Source: a virus (Duplodnaviria; Heunggongvirae; Uroviricota; Caudoviricetes). Taken from it: a stretch of 38,435 nucleotides of DNA. Below, piece by piece: positions 386 to 12,307 of this stretch. The notes under the pieces are model-generated. The model worked only from the letters and a program-made list of their open reading frames with translations. It was not told the origin of the DNA and did not search any database. Made by a program: the position numbers and the translations under genes. The stretch lies in the IMG/VR virus record IMGVR_UViG_2778261530_000011. The stretch is one strand, 5' to 3'. How positions within the stretch are numbered: the first letter of the stretch is position 1; each line of letters begins with the position of its first letter.

Positions 386-1609
386 ATGGCGCTGTCTGAT
401 GCGTGGTTGCGTTCAGTCGTTGGAAAGGAACGTGATAAGGTTTTGGTTAAATCCGATCGTGATGGTCTGTCTGTCAGAGTATCACCGAAAGGTCGCGTAG
501 TGTTCCAATATCGTTATCAATGGGCAGGGAAAGGTGAGCGTCTTGATATCGGAACTTACCCGGCAACTGGATTAAAAGAGGCCAGAGAAGAAGTTATCCG
601 TCTCCGTGGTGAACTCGAGTCAAACCGTAATCCACGATTGGTCAAGCAGGCTGAAAAACGAAAAGCTACTGAAGCCATGACGGTAGAGTCTGTGATCCGT
701 GCCTGGTATGAAGCATATTGTGTAAAAAATAAAAAAGGCTCTGAACAGATACTCCGCTCGTTTGAGCTGCACCTGTTCTCTAAAATCGGGAATATCCCTC
801 ACGATGCAGCTACATTGCATGATTGGTTAGAAGTCCTGGAGCCTCTTAGCACCAAGACTCCAGCAATAGCAGACCGATTGCTAATTAACGCAAAGCAGGC
901 CCATGTCTGGGCGTATAAGAGAAAGCTCATTGAAACTCGCCCGCTGTCGGATATCACGGGTAAAGATATGGATATCCGTAAAGGTCAGAAGAAACGGTTT
1001 CTGACACATGATGAAATTAAAATCCTTTATGCTGCGATCGATGGTTCTCGAATGGTTCCTAAATACCGGGCCTTCATTAAACTATTGCTGCATTTTGGCT
1101 GCCGTAGTTCAGAGCTAATTACCGCCAGCGTGGACGATTTTGATTTCATTAATAAAGTATGGACTGTACCACCAGAACGACATAAGACTGGGGAGATAAC
1201 GGGCGAACCGCTAAAGCGGCCCATTATTGAACCGGTTGAAGAGCTTATAAAGTACGCTATTTCTATGAACAATGGTTCCGATATGCTTTTTACTAAGGAA
1301 GGAAGCAGGGAACCCGTTGGTCGGACATCATTGCAGTCGCTGCCTTACAATTTAATGCAGTACGCATGGCGGCGTTTGGGGTATCAATTCCCTCATTGGT
1401 CTCTTCATGATTTGAGGCGAACAGCACGAACAAACTTTTCTGATCTTACTGCGCCTCATATTGCAGAAATAATGCTAGGTCATAAACTGCCAGGGGTATG
1501 GCAAGTTTATGACAAGAGCGATTATCTAGAAGAACAGCGTAAAGCCTACCAGGCATGGTGGGAGAGGGTTGAATTGATAGTTGCTTGTATTAGCTCAGAC
1601 CCCAACTGA
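386..1609 (+). CDS. int: Tyrosine-type phage integrase with N-terminal arm-binding domain (P4/CP4-57-like family)
   Basis: 407-aa ORF; N-terminal DGLSVRVSPKGRVVFQYRYQWAGKGERLDIGTYP pattern typical of DUF4102 arm-binding domain; C-terminal HDLRRT and downstream Y consistent with the tyrosine recombinase catalytic core; sits next to the host junction. Confidence 0.9.
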   Translation: MALSDAWLRSVVGKERDKVLVKSDRDGLSVRVSPKGRVVFQYRYQWAGKGERLDIGTYPATGLKEAREEVIRLRGELESNRNPRLVKQAEKRKATEAMTVESVIRAWYEAYCVKNKKGSEQILRSFELHLFSKIGNIPHDAATLHDWLEVLEPLSTKTPAIADRLLINAKQAHVWAYKRKLIETRPLSDITGKDMDIRKGQKKRFLTHDEIKILYAAIDGSRMVPKYRAFIKLLLHFGCRSSELITASVDDFDFINKVWTVPPERHKTGEITGEPLKRPIIEPVEELIKYAISMNNGSDMLFTKEGSREPVGRTSLQSLPYNLMQYAWRRLGYQFPHWSLHDLRRTARTNFSDLTAPHIAEIMLGHKLPGVWQVYDKSDYLEEQRKAYQAWWERVELIVACISSDPN

Positions 1610-1877
1610 CCGTTTGCATAGCTAGAACGAAATAAAATCTGACTGTCCGCTTTGAGCGACAACTAGACCTCAAAATATCTGTTGGATAATGGGGACAAAA
1701 TACAATTAAAAAAACATATGCTTAATAAGCAACTTATTTTGTTTAAATTTATGAAACACTCTCTAAATTATCTCTTATGATTTAACATTCTTTCTCTATC
1801 ACATGTGTAAAAATATGGTTAAAAATGTTAACCAAGATGCATTGTTAATGTGTTGATTTTTAAGGTTGTTTTTGTTT

Positions 1878-1897
1878 GCGCCTTGAATGCAAGGCGC
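1878..1897. other. Stable hairpin (gcgcctt-gaatgc-aaggcgc) just past the 3' end of the minus-strand cassette; possible terminator for int read-through
   Basis: 7-bp perfect stem read directly; flanked by T-rich tracts on the + strand. Confidence 0.3.
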
Positions 1898-1903
1898 TAT
1901 TTA

Positions 1904-2401
1904 TCAAGATAGTCTATTCAGATCAGTATTAGGTGTGTTTCTTTTTGATGCAAAGATGGATTTGAATCTTTTTGAGTAACTATCAAAAAACCATTTTGTA
2001 TAATTACCTTCAATTTCCTCTAATATTGAATACTTCATCTCATGAAGTTCATTTTTATAATCACACTTTTTGCTTAACAAGTCTAAAGGTGTTGATCTGA
2101 TAGATGACAACTGTTCATCACATAATAATTTCTTACCAATCCTTTGTGATAAATGAGACAGCTGCATTTCAATTAATGAGACACTGGAGGCTAAAAAATT
2201 ATCCAACTCTAATTCTTTAGTATCTCTAGAAGAGAGCTTATCTAAAACATTATCAAAAAGAGATTCTATTTGCTGACAGATTTTATCCTTTTGCCTTGAA
2301 ATATCATTTCGCTTGAATGCTCTATTGTTGAAATAAGACGCAACAAGCCAACCAATTATAGCAATTACAATACTTGTATAATTAACCTCTTCCTGCATCA
2401 C
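1904..2401 (-). CDS. Hypothetical membrane-anchored protein (single N-terminal TM helix, charged or coiled C-terminal domain); third gene of cargo cassette
   Basis: 165-aa ORF; hydrophobic stretch IVIAIIGWLVASYF near the N-terminus; start overlaps the stop of the upstream gene; AT-rich codon usage. Confidence 0.5.
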   Translation of the reverse strand: MMQEEVNYTSIVIAIIGWLVASYFNNRAFKRNDISRQKDKICQQIESLFDNVLDKLSSRDTKELELDNFLASSVSLIEMQLSHLSQRIGKKLLCDEQLSSIRSTPLDLLSKKCDYKNELHEMKYSILEEIEGNYTKWFFDSYSKRFKSIFASKRNTPNTDLNRLS

Positions 2402-2714
2402 TCTCTGCCTTATTCAATCGTTCATCAATCAAGGTCTCAATACTCTTAATATCTTTATGAGTATAAGTTAGTTTTTTCTTAAGTTCGCTTAATGTGTAGC
2501 CTTCTACTCGGATCAAGCCACCAAACGCTTCATCAATAAATGAACGCCCATAACGGTTATATCCAGTCAACTCAACATGAACTAAATCATACTCTTTGAG
2601 AAAGCCTGCCAGATATTTGCGAAAGTTTTCCCCACAGCCTGCCCCATCGTCTGGATAGCGCCCGTAAGGCTTACTGTTGAAGTCTTTGATAACATTGATG
2701 TTTTTAGTCTTCAT
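2382..2714 (-). CDS. STAS-like small protein (DUF4325-like, anti-sigma-antagonist-like fold)
   Basis: 110-aa ORF; size and sequence character (SFIDEAFGGLIRVEGY) recalled as DUF4325, which typically accompanies GHKL ATPases; overlaps flanking genes by 11 and 20 nt. Confidence 0.5.
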   Translation of the reverse strand: MKTKNINVIKDFNSKPYGRYPDDGAGCGENFRKYLAGFLKEYDLVHVELTGYNRYGRSFIDEAFGGLIRVEGYTLSELKKKLTYTHKDIKSIETLIDERLNKAESDAGRG

Positions 2715-3813
2715 AGCTGACCTTGATGTTCCACTGAATTAAAGTACCTGGTACTTTATGAGTTAACTCATTAATTTTATCACCTTTCTTATTAGAAAGC
2801 TTGAACATACCTAAATTACTGTAAATCCAAAGATTTCCATGTTCATTATTTAGTACTAGAGCTTTAATACTCTTACTTCCTTGACCATGTTTATCATTGG
2901 CTGTACCGGTTACGTCTCCAATCATAGAAATTGCTATTTTTACTGCATCAGAAACAATACCTACTTTTACTTTAGAGCGCTCTTTATAACCTAAACCTAT
3001 TCTCTCAAGTTCTTCGTTAACCGCAACCTTTAGATCTGGATATTTTGATTTGAGCGTACTCATAAACCATGTCTTTTGCATTACAGTTTCAGGTATACCA
3101 ACACCTTCATCATATATAGCAAGATAAAGCTGGTCATGAATTACGTGACATGCAAGCCACCATCGTTTCTCATCATTATTTTTATGCGGATAGGCGTGTA
3201 AACCAACATTATTTATTGCTTCCTGAACAGCATCTGCATATGTATGTTCTGTTTCAGGTTTCATCTTGTTTTTATAAATTTCTTTCTGGATGAAATCTAT
3301 AATCTCATCTCTATATTCTCCTCCTACCCCGCTAATAATGGGCAAGTTTTCAACGTTTTCGAAGACAGGTTTTAATTTTTCGCCCCGACATAAGGCGACA
3401 AGACCTGAGTCTCTTAAAAGCTGATTAACTTTAAAATCTGTTGAAAATAATAATCTGTACGATAAACCTTTACGAATTGAAGTTTCAACACTGGCATAAA
3501 GTATTACTAATGCTGCCATTTTTATTGTTTTTGTATTTGTAAAATCTAAATATAATCTCTCATCAGGATTATATTTTTTATTCCTGACGTGATTTATCGA
3601 GTGTAGAGAGTGCGCAAAAAAATTAGGCTTATCTGGTGAATATATTGAAAACTCAGATGGAAACCGAATAAAGGTATTATCTTTTTTCTTTTGAGATTTT
3701 TTTTGTTGACGAAACTGCGAATACTCTTTCCCTTGACGGGAAACACTTCGCTGCCATCTTTTAAAAGCCAGCCTAATTCTTACACTTTTTTCCTTATTGG
3801 CCTTGTTTTCCAT
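2704..3813 (-). CDS. GHKL-superfamily (histidine-kinase-like) ATPase with uncharacterised N-terminal half
   Basis: 369-aa ORF; N-box-like EAINNVGLHA, G1 box DEGVGIP (DxGxG), G2 box GQGSKS in the C-terminal half; lysine-rich N-terminus; putative AGGGGA SD upstream of the ATG at 3813. Confidence 0.6.
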   Translation of the reverse strand: MENKANKEKSVRIRLAFKRWQRSVSRQGKEYSQFRQQKKSQKKKDNTFIRFPSEFSIYSPDKPNFFAHSLHSINHVRNKKYNPDERLYLDFTNTKTIKMAALVILYASVETSIRKGLSYRLLFSTDFKVNQLLRDSGLVALCRGEKLKPVFENVENLPIISGVGGEYRDEIIDFIQKEIYKNKMKPETEHTYADAVQEAINNVGLHAYPHKNNDEKRWWLACHVIHDQLYLAIYDEGVGIPETVMQKTWFMSTLKSKYPDLKVAVNEELERIGLGYKERSKVKVGIVSDAVKIAISMIGDVTGTANDKHGQGSKSIKALVLNNEHGNLWIYSNLGMFKLSNKKGDKINELTHKVPGTLIQWNIKVSYED

Positions 3814-4590
3814 GTGTCCCCTATCAATATGCTGTTCTTTTCATACTACGAATGATAGTACAATTAAACCAAGATTGGTATACAGACTACCCGTCGTCCA
3901 GCACAAAAATTTTGTTGGTGGTGAGATTGAAAAACGTAGTTGAATCATATAGATATGCTGCTTGAGTATAAAAATACCGTTCTTAGCCATGCTCAAGAAC
4001 GGCTTGGTTTTGTTGTTGATAAAAATACTAAAGCTTTAACGAGTCTTAAATCAATATTGAAATAACAAAATCAAATTAATTAACAAGAGGTTTATCATTG
4101 AAAAAATATAACCCAAGAAAAATCATTAATTTTGAGTTCCAATTAACACAAAATACAACTTAATAATGCTCATGAATATATTAAATCATTAATGCAGATA
4201 GTATTATTACCGAATAGGAACACAGCAACTTAGCTTATTCTGCCCTATTTATACCACTGCTCCTGACCTTGTGTGGTAGCAGGAGCATCAGACCAGTCAC
4301 GATTCTTGGGTTGCTGACTTGGGGCACGATCATTACTTGATACATTCTACTTTTCTTCCTTGAGAACCTTAATATTTCCATATGTCGCTACTTTACCCTC
4401 CTGCTTTCAGGCCTACATTCATACGGGGTTCAGCGTGCTTTAAACTATACTTCGCTTACCATTAAAATATTGTATTTCTTAGTATCAGCCGATGACTTTA
4501 CCCTTTTGGGGCTCGGGACATTTTTTCTTGTATATTTCAGGAAAATATTAAATAACCATTTATCCATATAGTGATGTCAACTAATAGCTA

Positions 4591-4785
4591 CTACTCAATA
4601 ATTCCAGCAAATCTGTATATCTTGTGTGATGCCCATTTATTTGGGCAGGATTTAATATCCGGATCTGGAAAGTCAGGCCTGTATTTCTGGCCCGTTCTCC
4701 TGTTTACACTGTTCCAGCGAAGAACAGTCGATACTGAAACGCCACAGAATTCGGCAACTTGTTTTGTTGTCATTAAGTTGTTCAT
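4591..4785 (-). CDS. xis: Excisionase / AlpA-family HTH DNA-binding protein
   Basis: 64-aa ORF with TKQVAEFCGVSVSTVLRW helix-turn-helix; strong AGGAGG SD 6-7 nt upstream; position between int-proximal cargo and early-left genes. Confidence 0.75.
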   Translation of the reverse strand: MNNLMTTKQVAEFCGVSVSTVLRWNSVNRRTGQKYRPDFPDPDIKSCPNKWASHKIYRFAGIIE

Positions 4786-11474: not shown

Positions 11475-12307
11475 ACAGTTTAACGGCAAATAACCGTTTG
11501 TCGCAACAGCTGGTGGTCAGTGTCGCTGAACACCTGTTGTTACGGCATGAATGCAGATTACCAAATCACCTGGCTGTAAGTAACCACAGAGAACTTTACC
11601 TGACTGTGGGGGGCGAGTTGTGCGGGAACTTAACCGCTGGTTTCGTGACGGAAGAGGGCTTTATGTCCATGTTATTCGTTGGGAACCAGAAACACAGCGC
11701 GTTATCTATCTTCGCAAAGACTACCCGCATGAGTGCTTTAGTCCTTTGTGGAAATTCAGGCGTGATTTTGTTGAGTGTGAAGGACCACCAGCACATTGAT
11801 TCTGCCATTCCGGGACGTTACACTGTTCAGGCACCTTATAAAGCGGGTGACGGGATTGGCGTCCTGGAAATGTTATCGGCGATATATGACGCGCCAGCGT
11901 CTTTTTTATCGTCTGTGTCTGTGCACACCCAAATTATGGTGGGCTGGACGGGGGCACCGAAAGGTGCGCCGGTTTCCGATAACGCCGGTTACGCCAACCC
12001 CGTTCAGTTCACCACCAGCGAAATTGGCGTTTCCGGTGGTGAAGGTAATTCACTGTTATCGGAGGCTGCCATCATGGCTACTGTCCCAGCCCTCACTCGT
12101 CTGAATGATGAAGACTTACATAAACTCAGTTATGTAACAACTGCACTACGTGCTCTGCGCAAGGTAACTCTTTCGGATCCGCAGGCGCATCAGGTTTTGG
12201 TAGAAACCCTTCTTAACTTGCAGGCTGAACGTATTCGTCTGGCGGATAAGGCTAATTTTCATATTCACCGTCTCCTGAATATCAGCGGAGGGCATCGTCA
12301 TGCTTAA
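11471..12307 (+). CDS. Hypothetical protein
   Basis: 278-aa ORF; ATGA start/stop overlap with the upstream gene; no recognisable Walker motifs. Confidence 0.55.
   Translation: MNSLTANNRLSQQLVVSVAEHLLLRHECRLPNHLAVSNHRELYLTVGGELCGNLTAGFVTEEGFMSMLFVGNQKHSALSIFAKTTRMSALVLCGNSGVILLSVKDHQHIDSAIPGRYTVQAPYKAGDGIGVLEMLSAIYDAPASFLSSVSVHTQIMVGWTGAPKGAPVSDNAGYANPVQFTTSEIGVSGGEGNSLLSEAAIMATVPALTRLNDEDLHKLSYVTTALRALRKVTLSDPQAHQVLVETLLNLQAERIRLADKANFHIHRLLNISGGHRHA

What the first reader, a model, noticed from the sequence alone, without database searches (positions are those of the whole stretch)
1904..3813. AT-rich three-gene cassette between int and xis: GHKL ATPase, STAS-like protein and membrane-anchored protein
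Three translationally coupled minus-strand genes (overlaps of 11 and 20 nt) lie in the integrase-proximal cargo hotspot and are visibly more AT-rich than the surrounding phage genes, suggesting separate horizontal acquisition. The first protein carries GHKL ATPase N, G1 and G2 boxes in its C-terminal half after an uncharacterised ~180-residue N-terminal region. The second resembles a STAS/anti-sigma-antagonist-like DUF4325 domain; the third has one N-terminal TM helix. The architecture recalls RsbW/RsbV-type partner-switching modules wired to a membrane component, and I do not recognise it as a named defence or regulatory system. Candidate roles: lysogen-expressed anti-phage or abortive-infection module, or a prophage-encoded signalling switch.
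Basis: partly seen in the sequence, partly recalled or inferred. Interest (0 to 1): 0.85.

Follow-up and report, generated by a model that had tools for sequence, protein, structure and literature searches.

The report
Kinase–STAS–membrane protein prophage cargo cassette
Three tightly linked genes next to a prophage integrase encode a serine-kinase-like sensor, a small STAS switch protein and a membrane-anchored protein; this is an untested, membrane-effector relative of the recently described VapKSC anti-phage toxin–antitoxin system and travels as a unit on many mobile elements.

Summary
Three overlapping minus-strand genes, A (369 aa), B (110 aa) and C (165 aa), lie in a 2.9-kb AT-rich slot (34% GC against 51% elsewhere) between the integrase and an xis-like gene.

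- **A** is not merely a GHKL ATPase. It has a basic N-terminal helix, a STAS domain and a SpoIIAB/RsbW-type serine-kinase domain. This is the STAS-then-GHKL order of CapK/VapK (Chambers et al. 2026).
- **B** is a DUF4325 STAS protein, the same Pfam family as VapS. It has an invariant Ser58 on the first turn of helix α2.
- **C** is an N-out single-pass membrane protein with no known domain. It occupies the place of the VapC PIN toxin.

The A-B-C order is kept in all 24 gammaproteobacterial species loci found, and distant variants have a remotely homologous third protein. The unit sits in P4 and P2 hotspots, other prophage cargo sites, an integrative conjugative element, a conjugative plasmid and bare chromosomal islets. 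It is always lower in GC than its flanks.

It matches no PADLOC model. Rousset et al. 2022 listed it only as untested hotspot candidates.

Best reading: a phospho-switch abortive-infection or toxin–antitoxin module in which A phosphorylates B and releases the membrane effector C. This is inferred, not shown. I rate it a new variant of a known kind.

The parts
2704..3813 (-). Gene A (369 aa): basic N-terminal helix + STAS domain + SpoIIAB/RsbW-type GHKL serine-kinase domain (CapK/VapK-like kinase)
3679..3813 (-). A residues 1-45: lysine/arginine-rich N-terminal segment (pI 11.1) containing a long helix (2-26); R26 invariant, Y31 nearly invariant
3319..3681 (-). A residues ~45-165: STAS-fold domain
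2719..3261 (-). A residues ~185-365: GHKL kinase domain. N box EAINNVGLH = 3196-3222, G1 DEGVG = 3097-3111, G2 HGQGSKS = 2869-2889
2382..2714 (-). Gene B (110 aa): DUF4325 STAS-like protein, VapS-like. The invariant motif GYNRYGRSFxDEAFGGLxR is at 2508-2564 and the Ser58 codon at 2541-2543
1904..2401 (-). Gene C (165 aa; 164 aa if it starts at ATG 2398): N-out single-pass membrane protein with a ~140-residue cytoplasmic part; putative effector. The hydrophobic/TM segment (residues 6-26) is at 2324-2386
   Evidence: No Pfam, PADLOC or NCBIfam family. Family conserved downstream of B in 24/24 gammaproteobacterial loci. Remote homology to the third gene of distant variants, hhalign prob 92%.
3944..3972 (-). 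σ70 promoter-like site (TTTATA-17-TATGAT) ~130 nt upstream of A; candidate cassette promoter
   Evidence: This is a consensus match only; the number of such sites in the region equals the shuffle expectation.
3976..4003 (-). Terminator-like hairpin (10-bp stem + ATTTTTAT) just upstream of the promoter-like site; would insulate the cassette from upstream phage transcription
1660..4591 (.). Cargo slot: the AT-rich DNA (33.6% GC over 1610-4590) that replaces other cargo in sister prophages carrying the same integrase
   Evidence: Homology to sister prophages ends at ~1622-1659 and resumes at 4581-4592. GC values. Alternative cargo in sister prophages.
386..1609 (+). Context: tyrosine integrase (Arm-DNA-bind_3 + Phage_int_M + Phage_integrase)
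   Evidence: present in 700/5426 E. coli genomes
4591..4785 (-). Context: 64-aa HTH_17/AlpA-like ORF (probable excisionase)
   Evidence: E 6e-5, below Pfam cut-off

Best explanation
**What it is.** The cassette is a self-contained, horizontally mobile three-gene module.
- A is a cytoplasmic sensor kinase with a basic helix, a STAS domain and a SpoIIAB-type GHKL serine-kinase domain. It is a remote homologue of VapK/CapK.
- B is a single-domain DUF4325 STAS protein in the same Pfam family as VapS.
- C is a small inner-membrane protein whose bulk faces the cytoplasm.

**How it most likely works (inferred by homology to VapKSC).**
- In the resting lysogen, B binds the cytoplasmic part of C and keeps it inert.
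- An infection cue activates A. The cue is possibly a nucleic acid, given A's basic N-terminus and the ssDNA activation of CapK.
- A phosphorylates B on Ser58 at the N-terminus of helix α2, and B~P lets go of C.
- Free C then damages or depolarises the inner membrane. This stops growth of the infected cell, as abortive infection or superinfection exclusion that benefits the prophage.
- No phosphatase is encoded, so the switch would be one-way.

**Shown and inferred.** The folds, motifs, gene order, unit conservation and mobile-element hotspot locations are shown here. Kinase activity, the B-C interaction, toxicity of C, the trigger and phage protection are all inferred.
For: **Architecture.**
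- A aligns colinearly with VapK, hhalign E 1e-5.
- The E-x3-N-x3-H, DxGxG and GxG boxes are invariant.

**B and VapS.**
- B and VapS both pass Pfam DUF4325.
- S58 is invariant and lies on the first turn of α2.
- Like VapS, B ends in a conserved C-terminal helix (residues 91-106; R99 and A103 invariant).

**Published model.** VapS is the antitoxin of VapC. Phospho-mimic S48E releases the toxin, VapK mutants lose protection, and the operon protects against phage Bas42 (PMC13373217).

**Unit conservation.**
- A-B-C are colinear and overlapping in 24/24 gammaproteobacterial species loci.
- 10 of 14 distant loci, phage AS1 and the P2-hotspot variant carry an A-B-TM protein triad.
- The two types of third protein are related, hhalign prob 92%.

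**Topology of C.** Positive-inside rule.

**Defence-like ecology.**
- P4 psu-int hotspot and P2 hotspot, 68 occurrences.
- This int-proximal slot, which holds an AIPR abortive-infection protein in a sister prophage.
- Next to cI in Marinobacter phage AS1 and Francisella phage KIRK.
- Between the lysis and terminase genes in Providencia prophages.
- Among the tra genes of a Dickeya integrative conjugative element (ICE) and on a Vibrio conjugative plasmid.
- As bare islets in Aeromonas and Stutzerimonas.
- GC is below the flanks in 62/62 loci.
- The cassette is rare and patchy: 6 and 4 of 5426 E. coli genomes for the two variants.

**No phosphatase.** There is no PP2C or other phosphatase in the cassette.
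Against: - No experiment exists for this triad. Rousset et al. listed it but did not test it.
- C has no recognisable toxin domain, and no structure could be predicted for it.
- Direct B-versus-VapS profile similarity is not significant (hhalign E 0.034, prob 1.5%). In the ungapped alignment B Ser58 sits one residue after VapS Ser48.
- The aromatic residue that stacks on ssDNA in VapK (F54) and CapK (W68) aligns to a non-conserved position in A (T96). The trigger may therefore differ.
- B is far more conserved than C (62% against 23% mean column identity). That is unusual for an antitoxin that must track its toxin.
- The promoter and terminator calls are consensus matches no more frequent than in shuffles.
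Confidence: 0.5

Rival explanations
1. Classical RsbW/SpoIIAB-style partner switching that reads the cell's energy state. Kinase A itself holds C (or another target) inactive. In ATP-replete cells A keeps B phosphorylated and unable to bind. When infection lowers ATP, or floods the cell with new unphosphorylated B, B binds A and displaces C, which then acts at the membrane.
Against: No sigma factor and no PP2C phosphatase are encoded, so B~P could not be recycled. A carries an extra STAS domain and a basic helix that SpoIIAB and RsbW lack but VapK and CapK have. In the nearest validated relative, the STAS protein binds the toxin, not the kinase.
Confidence: 0.15
2. A tripartite toxin–antitoxin (addiction) module whose main role is to stabilise the mobile element that carries it. 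Any phage protection is incidental or absent.
For: It is found on a conjugative plasmid, an ICE, satellites and prophages. VapKSC is itself described as toxin–antitoxin-like. The genes are tightly translationally coupled.
Against: It also occurs as a bare three-gene islet between core genes with no mobile element left to stabilise. It occupies slots experimentally shown to be reservoirs of anti-phage systems (P4 and P2 hotspots, PMC9122126). The two roles are not mutually exclusive.
Confidence: 0.15
3. C is not an effector but a membrane anchor or sensor, for example of phage DNA entry or envelope stress. It signals through B to kinase A, and A's real output is phosphorylation of other host or phage proteins. 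Alternatively, the module regulates a host or phage process unrelated to defence, such as lysis timing or lysogenic conversion.
For: C has no toxin-like domain. Most C homologues have TM helices at both ends, a topology suited to a membrane-tethered scaffold. There is a weak holin-PHROG hit to the TM region (E 7e-4), and the cassette lies right after the lysis genes in Providencia prophages.
Against: The holin hit covers only the hydrophobic helix. The triad is also found in elements with no lysis genes: plasmid, ICE, P4 and chromosomal islets. The gene order and the K-S homology point to position three being the output.
Confidence: 0.12

Closest known systems
VapKSC (Chambers, Rani, Min, Villa, Corbett, EMBO J 2026; PMC13373217)
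   Same: It is a three-gene operon in the order kinase, STAS protein, effector. The kinase has a STAS domain followed by a GHKL domain, and A aligns colinearly with VapK (hhalign E 1e-5). The STAS partner is a ~110-116-aa DUF4325 protein with a conserved Ser at the start of α2 and a C-terminal helix. No phosphatase is encoded. It is found near defence genes and on mobile DNA.
   Different: The third gene here is a membrane-anchored protein with no PIN/VapC domain. A has an extra ~45-residue basic N-terminal segment and is ~65 residues longer than VapK. The ssDNA-stacking aromatic (VapK F54) is not conserved. The B-VapS similarity is only at Pfam-family level. No experimental data exist for this triad.
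CapK + CapS regulators of immune operons (same paper)
   Same: A GHKL kinase with an internal STAS domain phosphorylates a STAS-domain partner on a conserved Ser.
   Different: CapK has an N-terminal HTH, and CapS carries a wHTH and is a transcriptional repressor placed upstream of CBASS, Bub or Thoeris operons. A has no HTH hit and B is a bare STAS domain. Only gene C lies downstream here.
SpoIIAB-SpoIIAA and RsbW-RsbV partner-switching pairs
   Different: There is no sigma factor target and no PP2C phosphatase. A is about 2.5 times larger, with its own STAS domain. The module is mobile-element cargo rather than a core regulatory operon.
Rousset et al. 2022 hotspot candidates: P4 system 69 'HATPase_c | DUF4325' and P2 system 61 'DUF4325' (PMC9122126, Tables S1B and S5B)
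   Same: It is the same protein families in the same order, with '1 TM in protein 3'. My HMMs hit the P4 variant (L012) at A 4e-141, B 1e-56 and C 6e-56, and the P2 variant at A 1e-56 and B 1e-30.
   Different: Those are listed but untested entries on P4 satellites and P2 phages. The window copy is a distinct variant (B 60% and C 42% identical to the P4 copy) in a lambdoid prophage int-proximal slot.
Prophage-encoded sensor plus membrane-effector exclusion systems such as lambda RexAB (analogy only, from my own knowledge)
   Same: It is lysogen-carried cargo, co-located with cI in two phages. It pairs a cytoplasmic sensor with a small membrane protein.
   Different: There is no sequence or fold relationship. 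RexAB has no kinase or STAS component.

Membership tests
VapKSC | Three-gene operon in the order kinase - STAS protein - effector, tightly linked | tested here: met
   Overlaps of 11 and 20 nt. The same order occurs in 24/24 gammaproteobacterial loci.
VapKSC | Kinase with a STAS domain followed by a GHKL kinase domain, homologous to VapK | tested here: met
VapKSC | [quoted passage not shown] | tested here: met
   Both B and VapS are Pfam DUF4325. S58 is invariant and sits on the first turn of α2, and a C-terminal helix spans 91-106. Caveats: the Ser is offset by one residue from VapS S48 in the ungapped alignment, and the direct profile match is not significant. Phosphorylation itself was not tested.
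VapKSC | Effector is a VapC-like PIN nuclease | tested here: not met
   C has no PIN hit in Pfam, NCBIfam or PADLOC. It is a TM-anchored protein.
VapKSC | Conserved aromatic residue in the kinase STAS domain needed for ssDNA activation (VapK F54, CapK W68) | tested here: inconclusive
   F54 aligns to T96, a variable column in the A family. The alignment is of low confidence in this region.
VapKSC | Protects against phage; the toxin is neutralised by the STAS protein | not testable with these tools
   This needs cloning, toxicity assays and plaque assays.
CapK-CapS regulators | The kinase has an N-terminal HTH; the STAS partner carries a wHTH and represses a downstream immune operon | tested here: not met
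   A has no HTH hit; its N-terminus is a single basic helix. B is 110 aa of STAS fold only. Only gene C lies downstream.
RsbW-RsbV / SpoIIAB-SpoIIAA partner switching | GHKL serine-kinase anti-sigma factor fold | tested here: met
RsbW-RsbV / SpoIIAB-SpoIIAA partner switching | A sigma factor target and a PP2C phosphatase in the module | tested here: not met
   Neither is among the three genes or in the 2.9-kb slot.
Named or candidate defence systems in PADLOC-DB v2.0.0 | Any protein matches a PADLOC model | tested here: not met
   A and B have zero hits at E<=1. C has only a weak LeoBC C-terminal match (E 0.014; 6/29 family members, best 0.0028).
Rousset 2022 P4 hotspot system 69 / P2 hotspot system 61 (untested candidates) | HATPase-like protein + DUF4325 protein + protein with 1 TM, in a phage or satellite hotspot | tested here: met
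   Sequences taken from Tables S1B and S5B. HMM matches. P4 int-psu context.

The most novel reading that the evidence does not exclude
The triad is a new, widespread family of phage-defence or abortive-infection systems. A CapK/VapK-type kinase would use phosphorylation of a STAS protein to unleash a small membrane-disrupting protein. This would be the first partner-switching (GHKL/STAS) module wired to a membrane effector. It is carried as swappable cargo by P2 phages, P4 satellites, lambdoid prophages, integrative conjugative elements and plasmids. Its trigger may also differ from the ssDNA signal of CapK/VapK, because the ssDNA-stacking residue is not conserved and a family-specific basic N-terminal helix is present.
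Probability: 0.4. Interest if true: 0.7.

Novelty: new variant of a known kind. Interest (0 to 1): 0.6.

Why it matters
**Modularity of the kinase-STAS pair.** The GHKL-kinase/STAS pair was shown only in 2026 to control immune operons (CapKS) and a PIN toxin (VapKSC). This cassette suggests a third output, a membrane protein. It would show that the K-S pair is a general, modular trigger that bacteria and their mobile elements plug onto different effectors.

**Size and testability.** The kinase family is large: about 1,550 clusters at 50% identity with E<=1e-10 among 1.84 billion representatives. It sits in the best-validated defence hotspots of E. coli, and no PADLOC model matches any of its three proteins. 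A positive phage-challenge result would therefore add a detectable system to annotation tools. It would also give a compact model (about 1.9 kb, three proteins) for studying how phosphorylation gates a membrane effector.

**If it is negative.** It would still be a conserved mobile three-gene module that needs another explanation.

Tried and rejected
**Database searches that found nothing.**
- PADLOC, NCBIfam and Pfam gave no family for C and no defence model for A or B.
- The LeoBC, holin-PHROG and DUF7249 hits of C are weak and confined to the TM or coiled region. I rejected them as homology.
- PDB sequence searches with the A profile and with B found nothing meaningful.
- hhalign of the B family against VapS was not significant, so membership rests on the shared Pfam family.
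- Megablast and tblastn against phage records found no close copy, only Marinobacter phage AS1 at 23.5% identity.
- Rfam found nothing in 1600-4650.

**Literature.**
- Searches for a named system (STAS, HATPase, anti-phage, DUF4325, VapKSC) found only Chambers 2026, the Rousset tables, the PIN.4-DUF4325 note and the KIRK phage table.
- From memory I suspected the DefenseFinder system 'Rst_3HP'. No '3HP' label, DUF4325 label or B-like peptide appears in Rousset's table of tested systems, so I dropped it.

**Jobs that could not be run.**
- The look-up of Dickeya protein P0002 was not on record. P0126 was used instead.

**Ideas considered and rejected.**
- A two-component histidine kinase. A has no HisKA/DHp domain, and the best fold matches are anti-sigma Ser kinases.
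- A phage lysis regulator. The triad also occurs on plasmids, an integrative conjugative element, P4 and bare chromosomal islets.
Full report
**1.

The window has three minus-strand ORFs: A at 2704..3813 (369 aa), B at 2382..2714 (110 aa) and C at 1904..2401 (165 aa). They overlap by 11 and 20 nt. PGAP in a 99.5%-identical E. coli genome starts C one codon later, at the ATG at 2398.

The cassette is 33.8% GC, against 51.1% for window 4591-end and 45.6% for the integrase gene. Each start codon is preceded by a purine-rich stretch that could serve as a ribosome-binding site.

- a tyrosine integrase at 386..1609;
- a 64-aa HTH_17-like ORF at 4591..4785, a probable excisionase although below Pfam's cut-off;
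- further on, DUF551 and Ead/Ea22 proteins, a LexA-like repressor and a CII-like protein, which together mark a lambdoid prophage.

**2. What the three proteins are**

*Protein A.* Sequence models give only weak GHKL hits: Pfam HATPase_c_2 at E 0.011, and NCBIfam RsbW and SpoIIAB at E 2e-6 and 5e-5, all far below the family cut-offs.

An AlphaFold2 model built on 40 homologues (pLDDT 84.3, pTM 0.79) resolves three parts:
- a long N-terminal helix (residues 2-26) inside a very basic first 45 residues (pI 11.1);
- an α/β domain at about residues 45-165;
- a C-terminal α/β sandwich.

The ATP-binding boxes are invariant in the family: E198-x3-N202-x3-H206, D235-x-G-x-G239 and G310-Q-G312. The 'uncharacterised ~180 residues' are therefore a basic helix plus a STAS domain.

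Across 31 homologues the motif G-Y-N-R-Y-G-R-S58-F-x-D-E-A-F-G-G-L-x-R is invariant. In the model, helix α2 runs from residue 57 to 69. Ser58 therefore sits on the first turn of α2, where anti-sigma antagonists are phosphorylated.

*Protein C.* It has no family in Pfam, NCBIfam or PADLOC, whether searched alone or as a 29-member alignment. It has one N-terminal hydrophobic helix. An acidic N-terminus and a K/R-rich stretch after the helix predict that the remaining ~140 residues are cytoplasmic.

**3. A named relative exists**

A literature search led to Chambers et al., EMBO J 2026 (PMC13373217). That paper describes two systems.
- CapK (HTH-STAS-GHKL) is activated by ssDNA. It phosphorylates CapS (STAS-wHTH) on a conserved Ser and so de-represses immune operons.
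- VapKSC is a three-gene operon. VapK (STAS-GHKL) is proposed to phosphorylate VapS, a 116-aa STAS protein with a C-terminal helix and Ser48, releasing it from the PIN toxin VapC. The operon gives about 2 logs of protection against phage Bas42.

I recovered the VapS and VapK sequences from the paper's deposited AlphaFold model file and compared them with the window proteins.
- VapS is a clear DUF4325 protein (E 2.7e-17), so B and VapS belong to one Pfam family. [quoted passage not shown]
- The A-family profile aligns with VapK at hhalign probability 82-84% and E about 1e-5. With relaxed settings the alignment is colinear over 280 columns covering both the STAS and GHKL domains.
- Direct B-versus-VapS profile comparison is not significant. 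In the ungapped alignment B Ser58 falls one residue after VapS Ser48.
- The ssDNA-stacking residue VapK F54 aligns to a variable position in A (T96).

Gene order (kinase, STAS protein, third gene) and the absence of a phosphatase are the same in both systems. The third gene differs completely: a membrane protein here, a PIN nuclease there. The paper reports only the VapC effector for VapK/VapS-like pairs.

**4. The triad is conserved as a unit**

Homologues of A are full-length proteins of about 365 aa in Enterobacterales, Vibrio, Pseudomonas, Aeromonas, Shewanella and others. An exhaustive profile search found 2494 cluster representatives at E<=1e-3 and 1552 at E<=1e-10 among 1.84 billion. 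Nearly all of the best 150 are 300-395 aa.

A scan of one genome per species with B-derived peptide patterns returned 38 loci. HMMs for A, B and C found all three genes, colinear and mostly overlapping, in all 24 gammaproteobacterial loci. In Avibacterium, C is split into two ORFs.

Of the 14 more distant loci (Alphaproteobacteria, Brachyspira, Nitrospinaceae, Entotheonella), 10 have A, B and then a 147-204-aa protein with an N-terminal hydrophobic helix. The rest are truncated contigs, IS-disrupted copies or lack A.

These distant third proteins share E..A..YW and T-G-G-x-F-E motifs. So do the third proteins of Marinobacter phage AS1 and of the P2-hotspot variant. As a profile they match the gamma-type C family at hhalign probability 91.8% and E 7e-7 over 127 columns. 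The third component therefore looks like one old family.

Conservation differs sharply between the three: B has 62% mean column identity, A 42% and C 23%. Most C homologues also have a C-terminal TM helix. The enterobacterial clade, including the window copy, has lost it.

**5. Where it lives**

*In this prophage family.* The same integrase sits at the same yjjG-proximal site in 700 of 5426 complete E. coli genomes, but the cassette is in only 6. Homology between the window and sister prophages stops at about 1622-1659 and resumes at 4581-4592. The AT-rich 2.9 kb is thus a swappable slot.

Sister prophages carry other cargo there: an AIPR (abortive-infection) family protein, or unrelated hypothetical proteins of 413, 331 or 239 aa.

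*Elsewhere.*
- A 60%/42%-identical variant (B/C) lies between int and psu of P4-like satellites. This is Rousset et al.'s P4 system 69, 'HATPase_c | DUF4325 ... 1 TM in protein 3', with 9 occurrences. It is in 4 of 5426 complete genomes.
- A more distant variant is their P2-hotspot system 61, with 68 occurrences.
- Neither appears in their table of tested systems. The table has no DUF4325 label and no B-like peptide.
- Immediately downstream of the cI-like repressor in Marinobacter phage AS1, and a similar HP-DUF4325-TM trio in Francisella phage KIRK (PMC7924643).
- Between the lysis genes and terminase in Providencia prophages.
- At a prophage end next to mutS in P. aeruginosa.
- Among the tra genes of a Dickeya integrative conjugative element (ICE).
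- On a conjugative Vibrio plasmid.
- As bare three-gene islets between core genes in Aeromonas, Aliivibrio and Stutzerimonas.

In all 62 loci examined the cassette has lower GC than its flanks, by 12.5 points on average.

**6. Local signals**

On the minus strand, a terminator-like hairpin (4003-3976) is followed directly by a σ70-like promoter match (3972-3944), about 130 nt upstream of A. This would suit independent expression in the lysogen. However, such consensus matches are no more frequent here than in shuffled sequence.

The 780 bp between A and the xis-like gene has no ORF above 51 aa, no annotated gene and no Rfam match. It occurs only in the same six genomes as the cassette.

**7. 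Mechanism**

*Most likely (confidence about 0.5).* A VapKSC-like phospho-switch. B holds the cytoplasmic part of C inactive. An infection cue activates A, which phosphorylates B on Ser58. C is released and compromises the membrane, giving abortive infection or exclusion.

*What is shown.* The folds, the catalytic and acceptor motifs, the gene order, the conservation of the unit, the hotspot ecology and the absence of a phosphatase.

*What is inferred.* Every biochemical step and the phenotype.

*Points that weaken the model.*
- C has no toxin signature and no structural model.
- B is much better conserved than C.
- The ssDNA-binding residue is not conserved.

*Rivals.*
- An RsbW-like energy-sensing partner switch in which A, not B, holds C.
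- A pure addiction module.
- C as anchor or sensor rather than effector.

**8. Verdict**

The cassette is not a member of VapKSC in the strict sense, because the PIN effector is absent. It is not a CapKS regulator either, because it has no HTH domains.

It is best described as a new, untested effector variant of the kinase-STAS module. It has been catalogued before only as an unnamed hotspot candidate. Interest is moderate to high, because the cassette is compact, widespread, absent from the PADLOC models and directly testable.

Noticed in passing
window 11831-12019 (+): Rfam gathering-level hits to isrK (11831-11907, 55.4 bits) and C4 antisense RNA (11932-12019, 82.8 bits). This is a P1/P7-type c4 antisense immunity element inside this lambdoid prophage.
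   Followed up: no
window 3814-4590: About 780 bp of AT-rich DNA between gene A and the xis-like gene belongs to the cargo slot. It has no ORF above 51 aa, no annotated gene and no Rfam hit. It occurs only in the same six E. coli genomes as the cassette, at lower identity (about 95%) than the genes (about 98%). It is not present upstream of the Dickeya copy. Its function is unknown.
   Followed up: partly
window 1878-1897: A perfect 8-bp-stem GC-rich hairpin (GCGCCTTG-AATG-CAAGGCGC) lies 7 nt beyond the stop of gene C. The T-run is on the plus strand only, so it scores as a plus-strand terminator although the nearest plus-strand gene (int) ends 270 nt earlier.
   Followed up: no
L065-L068 (E. 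coli prophages at the yjjG site), slot equivalent to window 1660-4591: The int-proximal slot of this prophage family is a diversity hotspot. It holds an AIPR family protein in strain 26561 and unrelated hypothetical proteins of 413, 331 and 239 aa in other strains. These are further candidate defence genes.
   Followed up: partly
Alignment A3 (C family); e.g. L003:7443-7982, L009:7462-7986: Most C homologues (Pseudomonas, Vibrio, Shewanella and others) carry a second TM helix at the C-terminus. The enterobacterial, Aeromonas and Aggregatibacter clade, including the window copy, lacks it.
   Followed up: partly
window 2619-2669 (B residues 16-32): B has a second invariant element, the glycine-rich loop P16-Y-G-R-Y20...G24...G28...R32 between β1 and α1. 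It is conserved even in the distant variants (P.GR[YF]..DG..GE.FR). This suggests a ligand- or partner-binding surface distinct from the Ser58 site.
   Followed up: no
L039 (Avibacterium), L054 (Rhodobacteraceae MAG), L046 (Entotheonella): Some copies look decayed: C is split into two ORFs in L039, A is split into two ORFs in L054, and B is truncated and followed by transposase-like ORFs in L046.
   Followed up: no
PHROG library, phrog_5816 versus B: B matches the C-terminal 100 positions of a 441-position PHROG profile (E 5e-13). This implies phage proteins in which a DUF4325 domain is fused to a ~340-residue N-terminal part that is not the A family.
   Followed up: no
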